From contig CBDAOB010000005.1 in NCBI GenBank assembly GCA_965197905.1, forward strand, positions 480,001-544,000: 64,000 nt of DNA. The letters are read 5' to 3'. A program made the position numbers. The stretch comes from Candidatus Latescibacterota bacterium (GTDB taxonomy: Bacteria > Latescibacterota > UBA2968 > UBA8231). Within the stretch, counting starts at the first letter, position 1. Every line of letters begins with the position of its first letter. Shown piece by piece: positions 30,001-51,000 of this stretch.

Positions 30001-33000
30001 AGGTTTTGAGCCGGACGACACACAGCTCCGTCGGCGCCTCGATTTCAGTATCGATGAGCCGGATGCACTACACCCCTGCGTTTGGATCAATGGGAGATTT
30101 GGCCGCAATTCAAACTGCCCTATTTGAAGTTGATCGACGCGGATGCGGACCACCTCAACATCTTCGTCGGCGCGCTCATCGGGTTCACCTAATACGGGGT
30201 ACTCTTTTGAGGTGCGTTTGAACAGCGATGCACCTTTGAGCCAGCATCGCTCAATCACCCTGCGCGCCTTTCTGTTGGGGCTGCTCACCTGCGCCGGGAT
30301 TCTCTACTTCATCATCCAGGTGGGCCAGGGCATGAAGTCGGGCAGCTTCGTCAAGTCCCAATACCCCATCGTGGCGTTCATGCCGTTCGTGCTGTGGTTG
30401 TTCCTCAACACCGCGCTCAAGCGGCTGTGGCCCTTCGTGGCCCTGCGCCAGGGAGAGCTGCTGGCGATCTTTGCCATGCTCTGGGTGGTGGGTACCATGC
30501 CGCAGCTGGGCTGGGTCACCTACTGGACGAGCACAGTAGCGGGTCCCGCGTACCACGCGACGCCCGAGAACAGATGGGCAGACCTGCTCTACGACTACAT
30601 CCCCTGGCACGTGTTGCCGGATACTTCGCAGCGGGTCACCGAACTCCTCTGGTTGGGCTTGCCGGAGGGCATGGAGATTCCTTGGGACGGCTGGATCCGT
30701 CCCATCTTCCATTGGCTTGGTGTGTCGGTTGCGATGGTCATCTTCGGCTTCTGTCTGATGATGCTCTTTCAGAAGCAGTGGCAGGATGGCGAGAAGTTGA
30801 ATTTTCCACTGGCGATGATGCCGCGAGACCTGACGCAGGGATTCGACGGTGAAGGCAGGATGCCGGAGATCTTCCGCTCGCGCCTGTTCTGGATCGGCTT
30901 TTTGGTGGTTTTCCTGGTCTACGCCTACAACATAGTCACCTATTTCACGCCGGGGATGACGGCGACCACCATCTACCTGGAACGCTATGACTGGGAGCTC
31001 GGAGAGTTCCATTCGGTGATCATTCGGGTTCAGCCATTGGTGATGGCGTTCACCTACCTGTGCCCGGTGGATATCCTCGCCAGCCTGATTCTGATCTACC
31101 TGATCTACATGCTGAAATACGGTTTCATGCGGCGATTCGGCGTGGCGATCGGGGAAGAGGGTCAGGAGCTCAAATCGTGGGAAATCCTGTCGCTGGAGGC
31201 GAACGGCGCGCTCTTTCTGATCGCGTTCTGGTCCATCTGGCTTGCCCGCGGCCACCTGCGTCGGGCCTGGCGATCGGCACGGTTCGGCGAGGGAGCTGAT
31301 GTGGATGTGACGCGGTATCGGTGGGCGATCGTCGGCATGGTTCTTTCGGCGATCTTTGTTATCGGCTGGGGGGTCAGTATCGGCATGGACATCGGTACGG
31401 CGACGCTTGCGTTCACCCTGATCGCTCTGACCTATTTCGTCACGGTCAAGCTGATCGCCGCCACCGGCTTTGGTCCCACCTTTCCCAAAGACTCCAAGGG
31501 GATACTGATCGTCGAGGATCTGATCGGTTCCAGCCAACTTGCCCCGCGCAGTCTGGTGGCGTTCAAGATATTCTCCAGTCACGCTTTCTTTGGCGGCGGG
31601 CGAGTACAGGCATGGAACGCGATCGCCCACCATCTTCATCTGTTCTCGGTGTCTCGCCAACCGATCTGGGTTCCGACGCTGATCGTGGCGACCTTCGCCT
31701 TCGGATTCCTAGTAGCCGCCGGCAACACGATCTCGCTGGCCTACCACGAAAGCGGATCGCTCTACCTCTACAACGCCGGGCACGAGATCTACGACCAGAT
31801 GGTGAAGCTGCTCGACAATCCGAAATCCTCCGGTCTGGCGACGCGGGGGGTATGGCTCTGGGGGTTCTTCGAGGCAGGGGCTCTGGCGTTCATTCGCAGC
31901 CGTTTCCACTGGTTTCCCTTCCACCCGATCGGTATCGCACTGCAGACCAGCCTAGGCAGCGCGGTTTACTGGTTCAGCCTGCTTCTCGTGCTGATTGCAA
32001 AGGTGATTCTACTGCGCTACGGCGGCGTTCAGGCGTTTGTGGCCGGCAAGCCGCTCTTCTACGGGCTGGGGGTCGGGTATGTTACCGGCGTCGCCGTTTC
32101 GCTCTGCGTCGATCTGATCTGGTTTCCAGTGGGACACCGTGTGCATGACTGGTGATCCGCACAAAGAGTCCAGATCGTTGATAGATCGCAATCGGCTCGA
32201 TCGCCGATCCCAGTCGTGCAGGTGCGCGGCGGCAATCGCCTGCTTGCTGCTGCTCTATGGATTGCCGGCGAAGGCCGCGACCGATCGAATTGAAACGACT
32301 ATTCGCCACCTCAGCGGAATGGGATCCCGGGTCGCCGGATATCCCGGTTGCGACAGCGCCGCTGCGTTCATAGAGGCGGAATTTCGCGCCATGGGACTGG
32401 AGCGCGTACGCCGCGAGCAATTCCCGATCACCGTGCCCATGGACAAAGGGGGGCGACTGCGAGTGGGGGACGAGGAGATTCCACTCTACGGTTTGTGGCC
32501 GAACCTGGTCCGCACGTCCACGGTGCCGCCCGACGGGTTGAACGCGCCGATGATCTACGGCGGCAATGGGGATTGGACCGATTTCGACGGTAAAGAGATG
32601 GAGGGACGTCTCGTCCTTCTGGAGTTCAACAGCGAGGATCGCTGGTTGCACGCGGGTGCGCTGGGTGCGCGGGCGGTGGTATTCATCGAGCCGGAGACGA
32701 GCACCTGGCTGCAGGCGAACGAGAAATACATCGACCTACCGCTCGATTTGCCTCGATACTGGATCGACCGGGCCAGCGGTATCGCATTGCGTCAGGAGCT
32801 TCGCGAGGCGGAAGCCCCAGTCAGTCTCTACGGAAGAATGGATTGGGAGGAGCGATCTGCCTGGAATGTCCTGGGCCAGATCTCCGGAACCGATCCCGTT
32901 CTGCGTGACGAGCTCGTGGTTGTTCAAGCGTATTACGACGGCAATTCCGTGGTGCCGGCGCTGGCACCCGCGGCCGAAGCGGCAGCGGGCATCGCCGCTC

Positions 33001-48000: not shown

Positions 48001-51000
48001 ACGTTTTGAAATCGGGATTGATGGAAAACAGCTCGGCGCCGACGAGACCGCGATCGAACCAGCGGCTCGCGTTCACGAAATAGGCGGATCCGTGCTCCCC
48101 TCGTGGGGACGACTGGCCGAATGCCGGCTCGTCGCCATCGAAAGCGGGATAGCGCAGGAAGATGGACGAGCCGGCATACTCGGCATTCAATTCGAAGCCG
48201 GGAAGAGCCAACTTCAAATCGGCGCTGTAGGTAAACAGGCCGGTCTGTTCGCCGAATGTGAATCGCGCCCGGCGTAGATTGCTCAGATCCTGCACGTTTC
48301 CGGGTGAGCGCAAGCGATTGAGCCAGGTACTGGTCCTCCATCGCCGTGCCTCGTTATCGGCGCGATCGTTGATCTTGGTGAGAAAGAAAACGTCGACGCG
48401 GTAATCGTTCCCCAGCAATACCTCGAATTCAGCAGACTCGATGACCGGTACGTTGCGCAGATCGTAGAGGGCGATGACCCAATCCTCGCCGTCGGCCTGC
48501 AACACCTCGTCCGGCGGAGGCATGACAAACGTGTTTATAAGAACGTCTACATTGGCGAAATCGTTAACATCGACGCCTTGCTCGTGCTGGATGCGGTAGA
48601 GGTAATCGGCAAAGAACGAGAGGCCAGATCGCCCGCGGTAACTCAATGACTGGAATTCGCCGGTGCGCGAGGAAACCGAGCCGATGGAGGTTTTGACCAG
48701 GCTGTTGTGTTTGATCACGTGCCCGACAATGTCACTACGTTCCTCCCCGTTGATGAATAGCTTTATCTCCTGGACCACCGCGCCGCCACGACCATCGATG
48801 GGGGAATCGTCGGAGAAACGCAGGCCGAGCCAGTCGAGGCGAGGAAAATCCGGGCGAATGACTCCCTTTAGCGAGTTGTCCGATCCGGTGCTGTGAAAGA
48901 TGTGCAGGTTTGCCCCGTTGAGGCCCAGCCGGGCTGTTCCCACCTGCGTCTGCAGGCGCCCTCCCAGAAGCATGGTGCTGGCGTCGGCGGAATGGACGCG
49001 GTCCGCCATCCATTCTTCGATGTTGCTGCCCTCGACCCAGTGCCATGGGCGTTCGTAGCGGGAGGCCATGACGCTGAATTGGAGCCGCGGCAAGTGAGCG
49101 TCCAGGCGAGTGCCGTTGAAGGTCACTTGCGACAGGGTGAGCGGCGACAGGTGAGCGATCATATCGTCTCCCACCATCATGCTGTAGCCCCAATTCCCGT
49201 AACCGTCACGCCCGACAATAAGGTGTTCGAAAATGGGTCGAAAAACATTGATGTCTTTGAAGATTGCGCTGCCGTACTGTCCGCCCACACCGCGCTGTTC
49301 CCTCCAGGAAAAAATCTCGTAGCCCGAAATAAGTTGATTGCCCAGCGCACCAAAATACACGCTTGGATGATCGGAGTATGGTGTGGTGTGGTCGCGGTAG
49401 TTGACGTAACGACGGTGGGCGTAATTGGCATAGAGACGCGTAGGCATCCTCAATGCCAGCCGCGAGGGCGGTATCTGCGGCAGGCCAAGCGCTGCCTCGT
49501 CGACCTGATCGCCGTGCACATGGGGGATCAATGCTGCTTGAAGGAGGGTGCCTAGTGCGATTGCAACGAGAAACATCCAACCCATAACTGTATTAAAGGG
49601 CATGTAGCAGGGCGGGTAAAGATAAGAGGTCCGCGATTAGGTTTTCTTGACCGTCGCCTATTGAAAAAGTAGTTTCCCACCAGATGCCCCGCCCCGTGCA
49701 TTATGCCGCCGATGCGCGCGCCAAAGCGAGGTTGCCATGTTGACATTGCGCCAAACGCTGGTCGCCGTAATCCTCCTCGGCGTCCTCGAAATCCGCGCCC
49801 AAACCTACCCGCCACTGCCGGTGTTCGACGGGGTCTACGACCTTCCCGAACTGTCCGGAGAATTCCGTCCTCTGCGCATTCAGGTGAGCGACGTGCAATG
49901 GGACGGCTCCTCCCTGTTGCGCATTCCGTTCAACATCAACCAGCGGTCGACGGTTTGGCTGGCCGTCTATAAGGTGGACCCGGAGAGCGGGGAGACGGGG
50001 CCGGGGCTGGCGTGGCTGCATCTGACGCCCCAACCAAAGCTGGTGTCAATCAGTGACGGGCGCGATTTCCAGCGGGGCTCCAATACAATTACCTGGGAGG
50101 GGCGCGACTGGCGCGGTGAGGCGGTGCCCGCCGGCGATTTCGAGTTCGACGTGATCGCCATCAACAATCTCGACAAGGCGGTCCTCGCCGGACCCAGCGC
50201 ACGCACCGGATTCGGACGCAATATCATCGATACTCGTCATGATCCACCAGAGATCTGGATTCAGGAGTACGATCGCCGGGCTGAGGCCTGGGGCCGACAC
50301 AAAGCCGGAGATGTCATTCGCGGATTTCTGGGCACGGACTACCTGATCAACCCTTCGGGTTGGGAGCGTTGGGAGTACAATGACGACGTATTCGATTTCG
50401 CCGACGCGCGCACCACGTCGGGACTGCGCTTCGACGATGTGGATGAACAGGTGTTCTGGACGACTCACTGGCGCGGGTCCCGCGGCGGTCTCTACAAGAT
50501 GAAAATCGATCGCACCCGAAGATCCTGGACGCGGGATCAATCGTTCGCCATCAATGGGTTCTCCCCCAACCGAGAAGATCGCATCATGGATATCGCGCCA
50601 TGGAAGCAGGTGGTGTACGCCGCCCACTGGAGTCGCGGATCGGTGCCGTATTCCACCATTGAGCTGTGGGACAAAAGCAGCGGTGAGGTACTCAACGAAT
50701 TCGACGTTACCGAATTCTTTTCCCTGGCAATCAGCGACGAGCAAGGTCGCTTAATATTGACCAGCAGAGGCCCCTCCCAACTGGAGGTCAATGACCGGGG
50801 CATCTGGTCCGATAGCTGGGGTACGCCCCATATCGTACACCTGGATCACGAGGGGGAGATTCGCTGGGTCAACCGCAATGGAGATGTACTGGGCGACAAT
50901 ATCTCGAATGAATCTGCCGTCGATCTGGGCATGAGGCGGGGCGCCCGCGGCAACAATTTGCAAATGGCCGCCGACGGCAGCGGTCGGGTGGTTTTCGTCG

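What a model noticed while it worked through the whole genome (the two positions that open the first line are those of the whole stretch)
30218..49603. DUF6785/DUF6784 proteins are OPT/Yellow-Stripe-fold transporters, 38 copies, paired with giant SlpA-like barrels and M28 [...]
The genome holds 38 paralogues of the uncharacterised DUF6785/DUF6784 membrane protein and 57 paralogues of a ~980-aa protein without family; the first folds like the plant Yellow Stripe 1 (OPT family) transporter, the second resembles the 30-stranded outer-membrane barrel SlpA, and they often lie side by side. I read them as inner-membrane permease and outer-membrane channel of an uptake system that stands in for SusC/SusD-type import in this lineage, probably for oligopeptides or glycopeptides. 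That gives DUF6785/6784 a function and defines a new kind of utilisation locus.
Evidence so far: Clustering: family 6 = 38 genes, all DUF6785; family 5 = 57 genes, median 979 aa, none with a Pfam row. Model of g05168 from 17 paralogues: pLDDT 84.4, pTM 0.88. VIA-align against 48,161 chains: barley YS1 7wsr_A Z 20.7, 557 residues aligned of 600, rmsd 4.4, 10% id; next best Z 5.2. No gene has the OPT Pfam family and none SusD; 24 have TonB_dep_Rec. DUF6785 is in 153 of 167 genomes of the phylum but 1.2% of bacteria. Family 5: 33 of 57 have an N-terminal hydrophobic stretch; weak SlpA_C hits; model pLDDT 64 with about 30 long strands; best Foldseek hit trimeric SlpA 8ae1_A, E 2e-7. 11 of 38 family-6 genes lie within 2 genes of a family-5 gene. 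Three operons read DUF6785 - Peptidase_M28::Ft [...]
(Added by a program. Inside this text positions count along the whole contig: contig position 480,001 is position 1 of the stretch shown here. "Call 12" and the like, gene names such as g00115 and contig names such as C1 are that model's own, and its searches are not shown. The text may have been shortened before it was handed on; [...] marks where a part breaks off. The agent that wrote the report below was given it as the finding of a first reader that could run no searches.)

Follow-up and report, generated by a model that had tools for sequence, protein, structure and literature searches.

The report
OPT-fold permeases and new outer-membrane barrels
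An uncultured Latescibacterota genome carries about 37 copies of a membrane protein that folds like plant oligopeptide/iron-chelate transporters and about 55 copies of a large, unnamed outer-membrane barrel; both look like nutrient-uptake parts, but they are not a fixed pair, and the "peptidase" next to them is a dead domain of a separate, older membrane module.

Summary
The genome has 39 DUF6785 matches and about 55 genes of a ~980-aa family without Pfam ("F5"). There are three DUF6785 / M28::FtsX operons.

- **DUF6785 fold:** an independent model of another paralogue matches only barley YS1 (Z 22.0; next 6.2).
- **F5 fold:** a model from 80 diverse homologues reaches pLDDT 83 and matches only outer-membrane barrels. 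SlpA ranks first but is not clearly separated from ordinary porins.

- **Not a fixed pair:** F5 and DUF6785 cluster in this genome (10 of 36 versus about 2 expected). Among 81 genomes of the phylum, 35 have DUF6785 without F5 and 13 have F5 without DUF6785.
- **F5's conserved partners are others:** a ~1,090-aa TPR protein, ExbB/ExbD/ExbD, DUF4159 and lectin-like proteins with type IX secretion tails.
- **M28 is no clue to peptides:** it lacks the catalytic residues. It belongs to a MacB/FtsX-type giant protein that always sits next to a true OPT-family gene (window 36637-39387) across several phyla.
- **Substrates:** DUF6785 neighbours are mainly PhyH oxygenases and sugar-acid or glycoside enzymes.

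The scan had already noted the OPT fold of DUF6785 and the M28::FtsX-OPT module on other DNA. The F5 analysis is new here.

The parts
1..675 (+). 3' end of core F5 barrel gene 'F5a' (926 aa; starts upstream of the window at contig C5:477895)
   Evidence: 30% identity to P0001. Best own-genome hit of L087:3369-6125.
680..3448 (+). Core F5 barrel gene 'F5b' (922 aa)
   Evidence: 32% identity to P0001; E 2.6e-293 to the family profile; best hit of L087:6125-9100, 32% identity over 968 aa.
3473..6730 (+). 1,085-aa TPR protein (with YfiO/BamD-like repeats), the conserved downstream neighbour of F5
   Evidence: It lies directly after an F5 gene in 8 of 8 loci L086-L093 and in G060, G001 (3 pairs) and G003.
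6754..7965 (+). DUF4159 protein (403 aa), member of the core F5 locus
   Evidence: E 5e-32; 46% identity to L087:15180-16499.
7839..9245 (+). Probable lipoprotein with a C-terminal AgmX/PglI (TonB_C-like) domain. The likely start is the Met at residue 48, which is followed by a lipobox.
   Evidence: NF033768 E 4e-15; tonB_Cterm 0.0068; sequence.
9252..12212 (+). F5 barrel gene (986 aa)
   Evidence: 47% identity to P0001; SlpA_C 2.9e-4, below the cut-off.
12344..13858 (+). Family A: cytoplasmic protein related to GH130/GH117 (131 jackhmmer hits in the genome)
25474..26319 (+). C-terminal fragment of an F5 gene, directly before a DUF6785 gene
   Evidence: two pieces at contig 505468-505683 and 505684-506310, 67% and 52% identity.
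26321..28264 (+). DUF6785/DUF6784 permease-like gene, short type
   Evidence: E 9.9e-80 and 5.9e-16.
28304..29824 (-). Family A: cytoplasmic protein related to GH130/GH117 (506 aa)
30143..32155 (+). DUF6785/DUF6784 gene, short type; first gene of the five-gene operon.
   Evidence: E 8.7e-77; 83% identity to the gene in the same position in L030.
32139..36659 (+). 1,506-aa protein: signal/anchor, PA plus a degenerate M28 domain, then a MacB/FtsX-type permease module
36637..39387 (+). OPT-family membrane protein with a soluble insert. 916-aa ORF; the likely start is 36724, giving the 887 aa of P0153.
   Evidence: OPT 27.8 bits, above cut-off 25.8; one source names it an OPT family protein; the 120 listed relatives are 66-100% identical.
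39407..41551 (+). DUF6785/DUF6784 gene, long type, the subfamily tied to the M28::FtsX-OPT module
   Evidence: E 1.8e-89.
41572..43731 (+). DUF6785/DUF6784 gene, long type; this is the copy modelled here
   Evidence: E 7.3e-104; YS1 fold.
43732..46595 (-). Frameshifted F5 copy, split into ORFs 43732-45588 and 45444-46595
   Evidence: 68% and 67% identity to P0001; contigs from runs of two studies cover the frame change without an indel.
46664..49603 (-). Intact F5 barrel gene (979 aa, P0001); this is the copy modelled here
49737..51599 (+). Family B: secreted protein with a type IX secretion C-terminal domain, divergent from the F5 gene
   Evidence: FlgD_ig 1.7e-11; Por_Secre_tail 4e-4.
59648..61624 (+). 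Family B protein with a type IX secretion C-terminal domain. It heads a same-strand row B - DUF6785 - F5 - F5 that runs off the window.
61952..63925 (+). DUF6785/DUF6784 gene, followed outside the window by two F5 genes on the same strand

Best explanation
The stretch holds two separate things.

(1) DUF6785/DUF6784 proteins are a very divergent, heavily duplicated branch of the OPT superfamily. They are inner-membrane secondary transporters of the Yellow-Stripe fold. By analogy with YS1 they are proton-coupled, elevator-type importers. I read most copies as importers of small organic substrates such as oligosaccharides, sugar acids and PhyH substrates, because they sit among cytoplasmic catabolic enzymes.

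(2) The ~980-aa family F5 is a new family of large outer-membrane beta-barrels, remotely like the SlpA barrel but without its SLH and coiled-coil tether. Its oldest members sit in a conserved locus with a giant TPR protein, ExbB/ExbD/ExbD, DUF4159 and lectin-domain proteins that carry type IX secretion tails. Its many dispersed copies sit in catabolic islands. I read F5 as the substrate-specific outer-membrane entry channel of these islands, possibly energised.

F5 and DUF6785 are modular parts that are often combined in this lineage. They are not an obligate pair.

The operon at 30143-43731 is different. It is this lineage's copy of an old module, [degenerate-M28::MacB/FtsX giant protein] + [OPT-family protein] + [long-type DUF6785]. 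Its function is unknown, and its M28 domain is not a working peptidase.

Shown here: folds, family counts, synteny and phyletic patterns. Inferred: direction of transport, substrates, energisation and outer-membrane location.
For: **DUF6785 fold and homology**
- Model of window 41572-43731 from 33 paralogues: pLDDT 80.2, pTM 0.84.
- VIA-align against 48,161 chains: 7wsr_A Z 22.0, rmsd 4.1, 562 of 600 residues aligned, 10% identity; next best Z 6.2.
- Foldseek: 7wsr_A E 1e-6 (TM 0.67 normalised to the target) and 7wst_A 2e-6; next best E 0.019.
- Sequence bridge: the DUF6785 profile against the P0002-family profile gives hhalign probability 80.6%, E 1.3e-5 over 183 columns. P0002 reaches the Pfam OPT cut-off.
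- YS1 is a proton symporter with a proposed elevator mechanism (PMC9691689, passages read).

**DUF6785 context** (87 neighbours scanned)
- 12 PhyH, and MR_MLE, UxuA, GFO_IDH_MocA, SDR, epimerases, a rhamnosidase and GHL6.
- PhyH family within 2 genes of 13 of 36 DUF6785 genes; null 4.0, maximum 11 in 1000.
- Family A is cytoplasmic (1 of 98 with a hydrophobic N-terminus) and related to GH130 and GH117 (E 2.5e-8 and 1.1e-4).
- DUF6785 gives more matches (39) than MFS_1 (29), BPD_transp_1 (22) or SSF (5).

**F5**
- Model from 80 homologues: pLDDT 83.0, pTM 0.83, about 24 strands of 10 residues or more.
- Every listed Foldseek and VIA match is a beta-barrel membrane protein, nearly all bacterial outer-membrane proteins. 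SlpA 7zgx_A ranks first: Z 14.4, 443 residues aligned, rmsd 7.8.
- SlpA_C is the only Pfam family that recurs: 10 of 52 members, best E 2e-7, all below the cut-off.
- 41 of 44 full-length copies have an N-terminal hydrophobic stretch, and the C-terminal motif GFTE[FY]GR.[IL] is conserved.

**Core F5 locus**
- 8 of 8 loci from 8 genomes share one order: type-IX-tailed discoidin protein, PorV/FadL-like gene, one to three F5 genes, ~1,100-aa TPR, then MotA_ExbB and two ExbD. DUF5683 and DUF4159 were confirmed in the two loci annotated that far (L087, L088); the other loci show genes of matching size.
- The same genes lie at contig C5:471194-492212 of this genome.
- F5 directly followed by the TPR gene is also seen in G060, G001 (3 pairs) and G003.
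- Family B lies within 2 genes of 11 of 52 F5 genes (null 2.8, maximum 10).

**Not obligate partners:** (35 genomes DUF6785 only, 13 F5 only, 32 both, 1 neither).

**The M28::FtsX-OPT module**
- M28::FtsX lies directly upstream of the OPT-family gene in 53 of 56 loci. The other 3 have under 700 bases upstream.
- A DUF6785 gene lies in the locus in 29 of 36 loci labelled Latescibacterota or Gemmatimonadota (plus two labelled only 'uncultured bacterium'). In 24 of these it is a long-type gene directly upstream of M28::FtsX.
- The M28 catalytic motifs are replaced in 12 of 12 sequences aligned.
Against: - No transport assay, localisation or expression data exist, and no RNA run holding the stretch was listed.
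- DUF6785 itself does not match the OPT Pfam model. Neither its profile nor the P0002-family profile finds YS1 by sequence. The hhalign bridge covers only the N-terminal third.
- F5's best structural match (Z 14.4) barely exceeds ordinary porins (Z 13.1), so kinship to SlpA is weak.
- I could not inspect coordinates, so the strand number, any plug and the membrane orientation are not established.
- No TonB box or plug domain was recognised in F5.
- The 'TonB-like' neighbour is a probable lipoprotein, not a classical TonB.
- The ExbB/ExbD genes may simply be the cell's general TonB system lying next to F5. A diverged TPR-ExbB-ExbD cluster exists in one F5-less genome (G010).
- F5-DUF6785 proximity in this genome is real, so some functional coupling cannot be excluded.
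- My gene calls are crude, and several genes were missed or miscalled.
Confidence: 0.6

Rival explanations
1. One reading: DUF6785 (inner membrane) and F5 (outer membrane) are the two dedicated halves of one oligopeptide/glycopeptide import system that replaces SusC/SusD.
For: - Co-localisation above chance: 10 of 36, null maximum 9 in 2000.
- Several same-strand rows, such as B - DUF6785 - F5 - F5 at the right end of the window, and F5 - M19 dipeptidase - DUF6785 - GHL6 - GHL6 - F5 - B at contig C5:2.10-2.12 Mb.
- No SusD in the genome.
- OPT transporters classically carry peptides and metal chelates (established knowledge, not tested here).
Against: - The phyletic patterns are decoupled: 35 of 81 genomes have DUF6785 without F5 (24 to 68 first-look candidates in the 30 genomes of families f2 and f3, 6 to 24 in the 5 of f7; completeness 75-100%), and 13 of 81 have F5 without DUF6785.
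- 26 of 36 DUF6785 genes and 43 of 52 F5 genes have no partner within 2 genes.
- The M28 domain is degenerate.
- Only 1 of 87 neighbours is a peptidase.
Confidence: 0.12
2. F5 barrels are anchoring or attachment platforms for type IX secretion cargo, each serving the C-terminal-domain protein encoded next to it. This would be a PorV/PorP/SprF-like role, not nutrient entry.
For: - Family B proteins (FlgD_ig / Por_Secre_tail / CHU_C tails) lie within 2 genes of 11 of 52 F5 genes (null 2.8).
- In 8 of 8 core loci a tailed protein of matching size and a ~320-aa gene precede F5. In the loci annotated, the discoidin domain was seen in L087 and L088 and weak PorV/FadL-like hits in L087 and L088.
- That cargo-specific barrels lie beside type IX cargo genes in Bacteroidota (SprF beside SprB) is recalled knowledge, not tested here.
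Against: - F5 has no likeness to PorV, PorP or SprF in Pfam.
- It is about three times their size.
- 41 of 52 F5 genes have no family B gene within 2 genes.
- The link with ExbB/ExbD and the TPR protein is not explained by this reading.
Confidence: 0.2
3. F5 is a general porin or envelope-structural barrel (as SlpA/OmpM are tether plus pore). Its many copies would reflect surface variation, for instance against phages or a host, and not substrate specificity.
For: - The best structural and sequence likeness is to SlpA, which is an abundant outer-membrane to peptidoglycan connector (PMC9388160, abstract read).
- A conserved acidic motif that looks like a calcium-binding site lies at residues ~560-657.
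- Frequent tandem arrays and pseudogenes.
Against: - No SLH domain or coiled coil in 52 members scanned or in the model.
- The copies lie in catabolic islands next to enzymes and permease-like genes more often than chance.
- Paralogues are old (about 45% identity), not recently diversified.
Confidence: 0.18
4. DUF6785 proteins have the OPT fold but are not importers. They could be exporters, flippases or sensors; at the least, the long-type copies could work only as subunits of the M28::FtsX-OPT envelope module.
For: - The long-type DUF6785 is a conserved neighbour of the module across the phylum.
- The module looks like a housekeeping function: the 120 listed relatives of P0002 are 66-100% identical.
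- A shared fold does not show function or direction.
Against: - Most copies (short type) sit among cytoplasmic catabolic enzymes, which is the usual context of importers.
- It is the largest family of transporter-like proteins in the genome.
Confidence: 0.15

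Closest known systems
OPT family (Pfam PF03169; barley Yellow Stripe 1, PDB 7wsr/7wst)
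   Same: Same overall fold over nearly the whole chain: Z 22.0, 562 of 600 residues aligned. Profile-level similarity to a bona fide OPT-family protein encoded in the same operon. Polytopic membrane protein of similar size.
   Different: About 10% identity. The OPT Pfam model does not match DUF6785. There are 20-70 first-look candidates per genome in many genomes of one phylum. The genomic context is carbohydrate and oxygenase catabolism, not peptide or metal-chelate metabolism. Nothing is known about oligomeric state, coupling ion or substrate.
SlpA / OmpM-type outer-membrane barrels (Pfam SlpA_C PF21620; PDB 7zgx, 8ae1)
   Same: A very large outer-membrane beta-barrel. SlpA is the top structural match. 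SlpA_C is the only Pfam family that recurs weakly: 10 of 52 members.
   Different: No SLH domain and no coiled-coil stalk. All scores are below the Pfam cut-off. Z 14.4 is only just above ordinary porins at 13.1. There are dozens of paralogues per genome instead of one abundant protein. F5 also has a conserved acidic insert at residues ~560-657.
SusC/SusD polysaccharide utilisation loci of Bacteroidota
   Same: Many paralogous copies of a ~1,000-aa outer-membrane barrel, next to surface-exposed carbohydrate-binding-type proteins and glycoside enzymes. The core copies lie next to ExbB/ExbD genes.
   Different: F5 has no TonB_dep_Rec or Plug match (0 of 52). There is no SusD. The putative surface partner is a protein with a type IX secretion tail, not a lipoprotein. 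The inner-membrane partner, when present, has the OPT fold.
Type VII ABC transporters (MacB, LolCDE, FtsEX, YbbAP-TesA; PMC12646458)
   Same: The 1,506-aa protein carries an FtsX C-terminal permease domain, and MacB_PCD is seen in homologues. In Zipacnadia and Phycisphaerae an ABC ATPase and a second FtsX protein lie beside it. YbbAP-TesA couples such a transporter to a periplasmic hydrolase (abstract read).
   Different: No ATPase gene in this operon. The periplasmic head is a degenerate PA/M28 domain fused in cis. The fixed partner is an OPT-family membrane protein, which no described type VII system has.

Membership tests
Pfam DUF6785 (PF20581) + DUF6784 (PF20580) | Matches to both Pfam models above their gathering scores | tested here: met
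   Five window genes score 230-348 bits (cut-off 25) and 59-93 bits (cut-off 26.4).
OPT family (PF03169), for DUF6785 proteins | Match to the OPT Pfam model above the gathering score | tested here: not met
   No OPT hit on any DUF6785 gene in hmmscan. The six-frame search of the genome hit only the 916-aa protein and its paralogue.
OPT family (PF03169), for DUF6785 proteins | Yellow-Stripe/OPT fold over the whole chain | tested here: met
   7wsr_A Z 22.0, rmsd 4.1, 562 of 600 residues aligned, next best Z 6.2. Foldseek E 1e-6, TM 0.67 normalised to the target. The model has pLDDT 80.2.
OPT family (PF03169), for DUF6785 proteins | Sequence-profile homology to accepted OPT members | tested here: inconclusive
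   hhalign against the P0002-family profile gives 80.6%, E 1.3e-5, but only over 183 N-terminal columns. Profile searches against PDB sequences found nothing.
OPT family (PF03169), for DUF6785 proteins | Proton-coupled import of peptides or metal chelates | not testable with these tools
   Needs transport assays.
OPT family (PF03169), for the 916-aa protein at 36637-39387 | Match to the OPT Pfam model above the gathering score | tested here: met
   27.8 bits against a cut-off of 25.8, covering model positions 527-622 only. One source names a 74%-identical protein an OPT family protein. hmmscan of the whole protein did not list the match.
SlpA / OmpM connector family | SlpA_C barrel model above the gathering score | tested here: not met
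   10 of 52 members hit at E 0.05 or better (best 2e-7). P0001 scores 14.5 bits and the copy at 9252 scores 19.8 bits, against a cut-off of 35.
SlpA / OmpM connector family | N-terminal SLH domain and coiled-coil stalk | tested here: not met
   No SLH hit in 52 members. The only helix before the first strand of the model is residues 3-22, the signal-like stretch.
SlpA / OmpM connector family | 30-stranded trimeric barrel | tested here: inconclusive
   About 24 strands of 10 residues or more, plus shorter ones, in the secondary-structure string. Coordinates could not be inspected, and the oligomer was not modelled.
TonB-dependent transporters (SusC-like) | TonB_dep_Rec barrel and Plug domains | tested here: not met
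   0 of 52 F5 members match these models at E 0.05 or better. The same genome has 27 ordinary matches elsewhere.
TonB-dependent transporters (SusC-like) | 22-stranded barrel with an N-terminal plug (structure) | tested here: inconclusive
   TonB-dependent transporters appear at Z 8-11, below SlpA and the porins.
TonB-dependent transporters (SusC-like) | Functional or genomic link to ExbB/ExbD/TonB | tested here: inconclusive
   Core F5 genes lie in one conserved cluster with gene order matching MotA_ExbB + 2 ExbD in 8 of 8 loci (Pfam-confirmed in L087, L088 and L093) and in this genome. Synteny alone does not show dependence.
SusC/SusD-type PUL | SusD-family lipoprotein next to the barrel gene | tested here: not met
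   SusD_RagB has no match in the genome (completeness 91%).
Peptidase M28 | Match to the Peptidase_M28 model | tested here: met
   35.6 bits against a cut-off of 21.3, residues 243-380. Also matches YwaD 6hc6 at E 9.5e-7.
Peptidase M28 | Canonical zinc ligands and catalytic Glu-Glu | tested here: not met
   Aligned to YwaD, AHYDS reads AYYDG, GANDNGSG reads PAAEAAAG and EE reads HF. The EE position is HF, HH, NQ or GQ in 12 of 12 homologues aligned. The identity of the canonical ligands is recalled knowledge of the family.
Type VII ABC transporter (MacB/FtsX) | FtsX permease domain with a periplasmic domain | tested here: met
   FtsX 48.3 bits against a cut-off of 25.5. MacB_PCD is found in the Zipacnadia homologue and in 13-21% of members of nearby atlas clusters.
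Type VII ABC transporter (MacB/FtsX) | Cognate ABC ATPase | tested here: inconclusive
   None in the operon. ABC_tran lies adjacent in 2 of 6 loci annotated from other genomes (L066, L069). The rest of this genome was not searched for a partner.

The most novel reading that the evidence does not exclude
Latescibacterota use a nutrient-capture architecture of their own. Lectin-like surface proteins anchored by type IX secretion hand glycans to F5 barrels. F5 would be a new class of outer-membrane transporter powered by the neighbouring ExbB/ExbD system through the giant TPR protein, unrelated in sequence to TonB-dependent receptors. OPT-fold DUF6785 symporters (or other permeases in lineages without them) then carry the products across the inner membrane to cytoplasmic GH130/GH117-like enzymes and PhyH oxygenases.
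Probability: 0.22. Interest if true: 0.85.

Novelty: new variant of a known kind. Interest (0 to 1): 0.62.

Why it matters
- **DUF6785/DUF6784 gets a fold and a likely role.** No paper in the library mentions these names (0 papers for DUF6785, DUF6784, PF20581 or PF20580). Placing the family in the OPT superfamily gives a fold, a probable mechanism and a testable role to what is probably the main permease family of a widespread uncultured phylum.
- **F5 is a new large barrel family.** It has no Pfam or NCBIfam model. There are 484 cluster representatives at E 0.001 or better among 1.84 billion. Its conserved link to ExbB/ExbD, a giant TPR protein and type IX cargo makes the idea of a non-SusCD, possibly energised, uptake route directly testable.
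- **A caution for annotators.** The 'M28 peptidase' label in these operons should not be read as peptide metabolism.

Tried and rejected
- **Profile searches against PDB sequences.** The F5 profile gave one chance hit at E 0.067. The DUF6785 profile gave none and the P0002-family profile gave none. So there is no sequence-level link to any solved structure.
- **NCBIfam on F5, P0002 and DUF6785:** nothing.
- **hhalign of the DUF6785 profile against the single P0002 sequence:** weak (9.6%, E 0.0034). It improved only with a family alignment.
- **F5 as the type IX translocon:** rejected, because the genome has an ordinary SprA (129 bits). GldM_1st was not found, which says little.
- **Family B N-terminal region against PDB sequences:** only the C-terminal FlgD-like/PorU-like domain matched.
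- **Giant TPR protein in five F5-less genomes:** not found at E 1e-20 or better in 3 of 3 genomes of families f2 and f3. Only weak partial hits (21-22% identity by BLAST) in 2 genomes of f7, in a different context. This is too few genomes to build on.
- **ESM Atlas.** For F5 the 30 nearest clusters have no Pfam family; the nearest named one is DUF6029 at 0.89, which is a lead only. For M28::FtsX it found only its own uncharacterised clusters.
- **Sequencing runs:** no RNA holder was listed, so there is nothing on expression.
- **Complex prediction** of the TonB_C-like domain (window 7839-9245, residues 300-468) with the F5 N-terminal segment (residues 25-125): no answer, score 0.00.
- **Promoter/terminator scan:** not done, because the request exceeded the size limit.
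- **Not tested:** the claim '1.2% of bacteria', and strand counting on coordinates.

Full report
**What is in the stretch**

The region 30143-49603 holds two units.

The first is five tightly packed genes on the + strand:
- DUF6785/DUF6784 (30143-32155);
- a 1,506-aa protein with Peptidase_M28 and FtsX matches (32139-36659; it overlaps the previous gene by 17 bases);
- a 916-aa polytopic membrane protein without a listed Pfam family (36637-39387);
- two more DUF6785/DUF6784 genes (39407-41551, 41572-43731; gaps of 19 and 20 bases).

The second unit lies on the - strand. It is a frameshifted copy (43732-45588 and 45444-46595) and an intact copy (46664-49603, P0001) of the ~980-aa family that I call F5. 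The intact copy is transcribed divergently from a protein with a type IX secretion C-terminal domain (49737-51599).

The rest of the window matters too.
- Two further DUF6785 genes lie at 26321-28264 and 61952-63925.
- An F5 C-terminal fragment lies at 25474-26319.
- The left end holds a row F5 - F5 - TPR (1,085 aa) - DUF4159 - a protein with a TonB_C-like domain - F5, at 1-12212.

Record titles of the closest public relatives name Candidatus Latescibacterota; some are labelled Gemmatimonadota.

**The observation**

The counts hold.
- PF20581 gives 39 matches in the genome. 37 are full or nearly full length (two of these carry an in-frame TAG) and 2 are pieces of one broken gene.
- P0001 finds 77 matching pieces.
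- In my own crude ORF set, jackhmmer collects 63 F5 ORFs (52 of 600 aa or more, 44 of 850 aa or more) and 40 DUF6785 ORFs (36 of 450 aa or more).
- 10 of 36 DUF6785 genes lie within two genes of an F5 gene. Random placement gives a mean of 1.5 and a maximum of 7 in 2000 trials.
- If F5 is placed at random only among the 2,901 genes near other expanded catabolic families, the mean is 2.4 and the maximum 9 in 2000 trials.
- Three M28::FtsX genes exist, each with a copy of the 916-aa gene after it and a DUF6785 gene beside them. Two of the three sets carry breaks.
- TonB_dep_Rec gives 27 matches and SusD none.

One statement is wrong. The OPT Pfam model does hit this genome. It matches the C-terminus of the 916-aa protein at 27.8 bits (cut-off 25.8) and its paralogue at 19.5 bits.

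**DUF6785 has the OPT fold**

The model has pLDDT 80.2 and pTM 0.84.
- Against 48,161 chains the only real match is barley Yellow Stripe 1: 7wsr_A, Z 22.0, rmsd 4.1, 562 of 600 residues aligned, 10% identity. The next best is Z 6.2.
- Foldseek gives 7wsr_A at E 1e-6 and 7wst_A at 2e-6, with TM 0.67 normalised to the target. The next hit is E 0.019.

There is also a sequence bridge, which I regard as new support. The 916-aa protein (P0002; real start probably at 36724, giving 887 aa) reaches the OPT cut-off, and one source names a close relative an OPT family protein. A profile of 16 diverse members of its family aligns with the DUF6785 profile at hhalign probability 80.6%, E 1.3e-5. That alignment covers only the N-terminal 183 columns.

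Profile searches of both families against PDB sequences found nothing. I therefore file DUF6785 as a far branch of the OPT superfamily, not as a member of Pfam OPT.

YS1 is a proton symporter with a core and a scaffold domain and a proposed elevator mechanism (PMC9691689, passages read). I adopt that as the working mechanism by analogy only.

**What DUF6785 carries**

I scanned 87 neighbours (within two genes) of the DUF6785 genes outside the window.
- 12 are PhyH oxygenases.
- The rest are mostly MR_MLE, UxuA, GFO_IDH_MocA, SDR, epimerases, xylose-isomerase-like barrels, a rhamnosidase, GHL6 proteins, proteins with type IX secretion tails and FG-GAP/ASPIC proteins.
- Only one is a peptidase (M19).

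The PhyH family has about 156 genes of 200 aa or more here. All 12 PhyH-annotated genes fall in it. It lies within two genes of 13 of 36 DUF6785 genes, against a null of 4.0 and a maximum of 11 in 1000.

The gene between two DUF6785 genes in the window (28304-29824) belongs to a family with 131 jackhmmer hits.
- It has no Pfam match.
- It has no signal sequence: 1 of 98 members has a hydrophobic N-terminus.
- It is distantly related to GH130 beta-mannoside phosphorylases (E 2.5e-8) and GH117 anhydro-galactosidases (E 1.1e-4).

Cytoplasmic glycoside enzymes need imported oligosaccharides. DUF6785 (39 matches) outnumbers MFS_1 (29), BPD_transp_1 (22) and SSF (5). I conclude that the short-type copies are general catabolic importers. 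Carbohydrate-derived and PhyH-type substrates are more likely than peptides.

**F5 is a large outer-membrane barrel**

An exhaustive search found 484 cluster representatives at E 0.001 or better (303 at 1e-10 or better) among 1.84 billion proteins.
- The model is almost all long strands: about 24 of 10 residues or more, plus shorter ones.
- It has a beta-rich insert at about residues 256-450.
- It has a conserved acidic stretch at about residues 560-657 (a run of D/N-rich repeats such as DDNDD and DEDxDG). This looks like a calcium-binding motif; that reading rests on my own knowledge.

Every listed Foldseek and VIA match is a beta-barrel membrane protein, nearly all bacterial outer-membrane proteins: MtrB, SlpA, porins, SprA, ushers, LptD and TonB-dependent receptors. 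SlpA 7zgx_A ranks first in VIA (Z 14.4, 443 residues aligned, rmsd 7.8) but is hardly above porins at 13.1.

SlpA_C is the only Pfam family that recurs among 52 members scanned: 10 of 52, best E 2e-7, always below the cut-off of 35 bits. There is no SLH domain or coiled coil, which define SlpA as a connector (PMC9388160, abstract read).

41 of 44 full-length copies have an N-terminal hydrophobic stretch, 3 with a lipobox-like motif. The C-terminus is a conserved GFTE[FY]GR.[IL].

So F5 is a new barrel family that works like, and may be remotely related to, the SlpA barrel. It is not a member of that family.

**F5 and DUF6785 are not a fixed pair**

In 81 genomes sampled across the phylum, F5 is in 45 and DUF6785 in 67.
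- Families f2 (24 genomes), f3 (6) and f7 (5) have DUF6785 but no F5 at E 1e-10 or better. Genomes of f2 and f3 have 21 to 68 first-look DUF6785 candidates and those of f7 have 6 to 24. Completeness is 75-100%, and many are single-contig genomes.
- Family f9 (13 genomes) has F5 and no DUF6785.
- 32 genomes have both, and one (67% complete) has neither.

Each family therefore works without the other. Their proximity in this genome is real but facultative.

**F5's conserved partners**

I fetched the surroundings of the best F5 match in eight genomes: seven of family f9 and one of family f13. All eight show the same order:

1. a ~770-1,120-aa protein with a CHU_C/FlgD_ig type IX secretion tail (an F5/8 type C discoidin domain was found in the two f9 loci annotated, L087 and L088, not in L093);
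2. a ~320-aa gene (weak PorV/FadL likeness in L087 and L088; no match in L093);
3. one to three F5 genes;
4. a ~1,100-aa TPR protein with YfiO-like repeats;
5. DUF5683 (confirmed in L087 and L088);
6. a ~150-aa gene;
7. MotA_ExbB;
8. two ExbD genes;
9. DUF4159 (confirmed in L087 and L088);
10. a ~395-aa gene.

Pfam was run on three of the eight loci (plus one gene of L086). For the others the shared order rests on gene sizes and the F5 profile.

This genome has the same set at contig C5:471194-492212, partly rearranged:
- ExbD, ExbD and ExbB on the opposite strand;
- two discoidin/FlgD_ig proteins (687 and 702 aa);
- F5a;
- F5b (window 680-3448);
- TPR (34% identical over 1,096 aa to the L087 gene);
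- DUF4159 (46% identical);
- the protein with the TonB_C-like domain;
- a third F5.

F5 directly followed by the TPR gene is also seen in G060, G001 (three pairs) and G003, by comparing the coordinates.

The dispersed F5 copies also keep a family B gene (type IX secretion tail) within two genes in 11 of 52 cases (null 2.8, maximum 10).

This makes an energised, SusC-like role conceivable. It is not shown, for four reasons.
- F5 has no Plug or TonB_dep_Rec match.
- The 'TonB-like' neighbour is a probable lipoprotein.
- The ExbB/ExbD genes may be the cell's general system.
- One F5-less genome (G010, family f7) has a diverged TPR-ExbB-ExbD cluster.

**The M28 operon is a different, older module**

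P0002 has 1,116 relatives at E 1e-5 or better among the 8,000 candidates scored. The 120 best are 66-100% identical, and many carry PDZ inserts. It is far more conserved than the DUF6785 paralogues.

I examined 56 public loci.
- An M28::FtsX gene lies directly upstream of the P0002 homologue in 53. The other three have under 700 bases of upstream sequence.
- The labels include Latescibacterota, Gemmatimonadota, Handelsmanbacteria, Armatimonadia, Zipacnadia, Planctomycetota, Phycisphaeraceae, Victivallales and Poribacteria.
- In 29 of the 36 loci L029-L063 and L065 (labelled Latescibacterota, Gemmatimonadota or Handelsmanbacteria, two only 'uncultured bacterium') a DUF6785 gene lies in the locus. 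In 24 of them it is a long-type gene directly upstream of M28::FtsX, 38-48% identical to window 39407 and 41572.
- In this genome and its nearest relatives the long-type gene lies downstream instead, and a short-type gene has taken the upstream place.
- In Zipacnadia and Phycisphaerae an ABC ATPase and a second FtsX protein lie beside the module.

The M28 domain aligns to the aminopeptidase YwaD. Where YwaD has AHYDS, GANDNGSG and EE, it reads AYYDG, PAAEAAAG and HF. The EE position is HF, HH, NQ or GQ in 12 of 12 homologues aligned.

The module is thus a MacB/FtsX-type (type VII ABC-like) protein with a dead peptidase-shaped head, paired with OPT-fold proteins. The closest described systems are MacB, LolCDE, FtsEX and YbbAP-TesA (PMC12646458, abstract read). 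Its function is unknown. It gives no support to a peptide substrate for the DUF6785 family at large.

**What the scan knew before**

Earlier notes of this scan had already reported the OPT fold of DUF6785 on other windows of this genome, and the M28::FtsX-OPT module on six other genomes. My results agree with both and were obtained from my own calls.

**Minor points**

Contigs of public runs from two studies cover the frame change of the broken F5 copy without an indel, so the break is probably real. No RNA data were available.

**Verdict**

It is wrong on the obligate pairing, on M28 as evidence for peptides, and on the absence of OPT. The most useful new lead is the conserved F5 - TPR - ExbB/ExbD - DUF4159 locus with its lectin-like partners carrying type IX secretion tails.

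Noticed in passing
window 1-12212 and upstream (contig C5:471194-480000, locus L094): A core F5 locus is conserved across the phylum. It holds ExbB/ExbD/ExbD, two discoidin-domain proteins with type IX secretion tails, two F5 barrels, a 1,085-aa TPR protein, DUF4159, a lipoprotein with an AgmX/TonB_C-like domain and a third F5. The same gene order is seen in 8 of 8 loci from other genomes.
   Followed up: yes
window 28304-29824 (-) and 12344-13858 (+): A family with 131 jackhmmer hits in the genome. Members are ~500 aa, have no signal peptide and match no Pfam family. The family is distantly related to GH130 phosphorylases and GH117 anhydro-galactosidases, so it may be a new cytoplasmic glycoside hydrolase or phosphorylase family.
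   Followed up: partly
whole genome: About 156-163 PhyH-family genes, about 90 GFO_IDH_MocA-like genes and about 40 enolase-superfamily genes in one 6.7-Mb genome. PhyH is the most frequent neighbour of DUF6785.
   Followed up: partly
window 36637-39387, residues ~620-800 of the 916-aa protein: The OPT-family protein carries a soluble insert with acidic repeats that look like calcium-binding sites. Many orthologues in other Latescibacterota carry PDZ domains, apparently at this place.
   Followed up: no
L036:13959-14669 and L048:13092-13793: A PspA/IM30 gene follows the M28::FtsX-OPT module in two Latescibacterota loci. This may be a hint of a membrane-stress context.
   Followed up: no
window 43732-46595 (-); contig C5:2456582-2465181; contig C4:1074592-1076553: Several members of these families are broken: a frameshifted F5 copy, a DUF6785 gene in two pieces, and copies of the 916-aa gene with an in-frame TAG or in three pieces. 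Gene turnover seems to be ongoing in the expanded families.
   Followed up: partly
window 15384-17360, 19957-22548, 22636-24147: Genes for an esterase (AXE1/glucuronyl-esterase-like), a GH95 fucosidase-like enzyme and a sulfatase lie between the core F5 locus and the DUF6785 genes. This fits degradation of a sulfated, fucosylated glycan.
   Followed up: no
G001, G003, G079 and other genomes: F5 genes often stand in tandem arrays of two to four. Examples are G079:C1:3743723-3755282 and G003:C2:779884-788342. This could mean hetero-oligomeric barrels or simple duplication.
   Followed up: no
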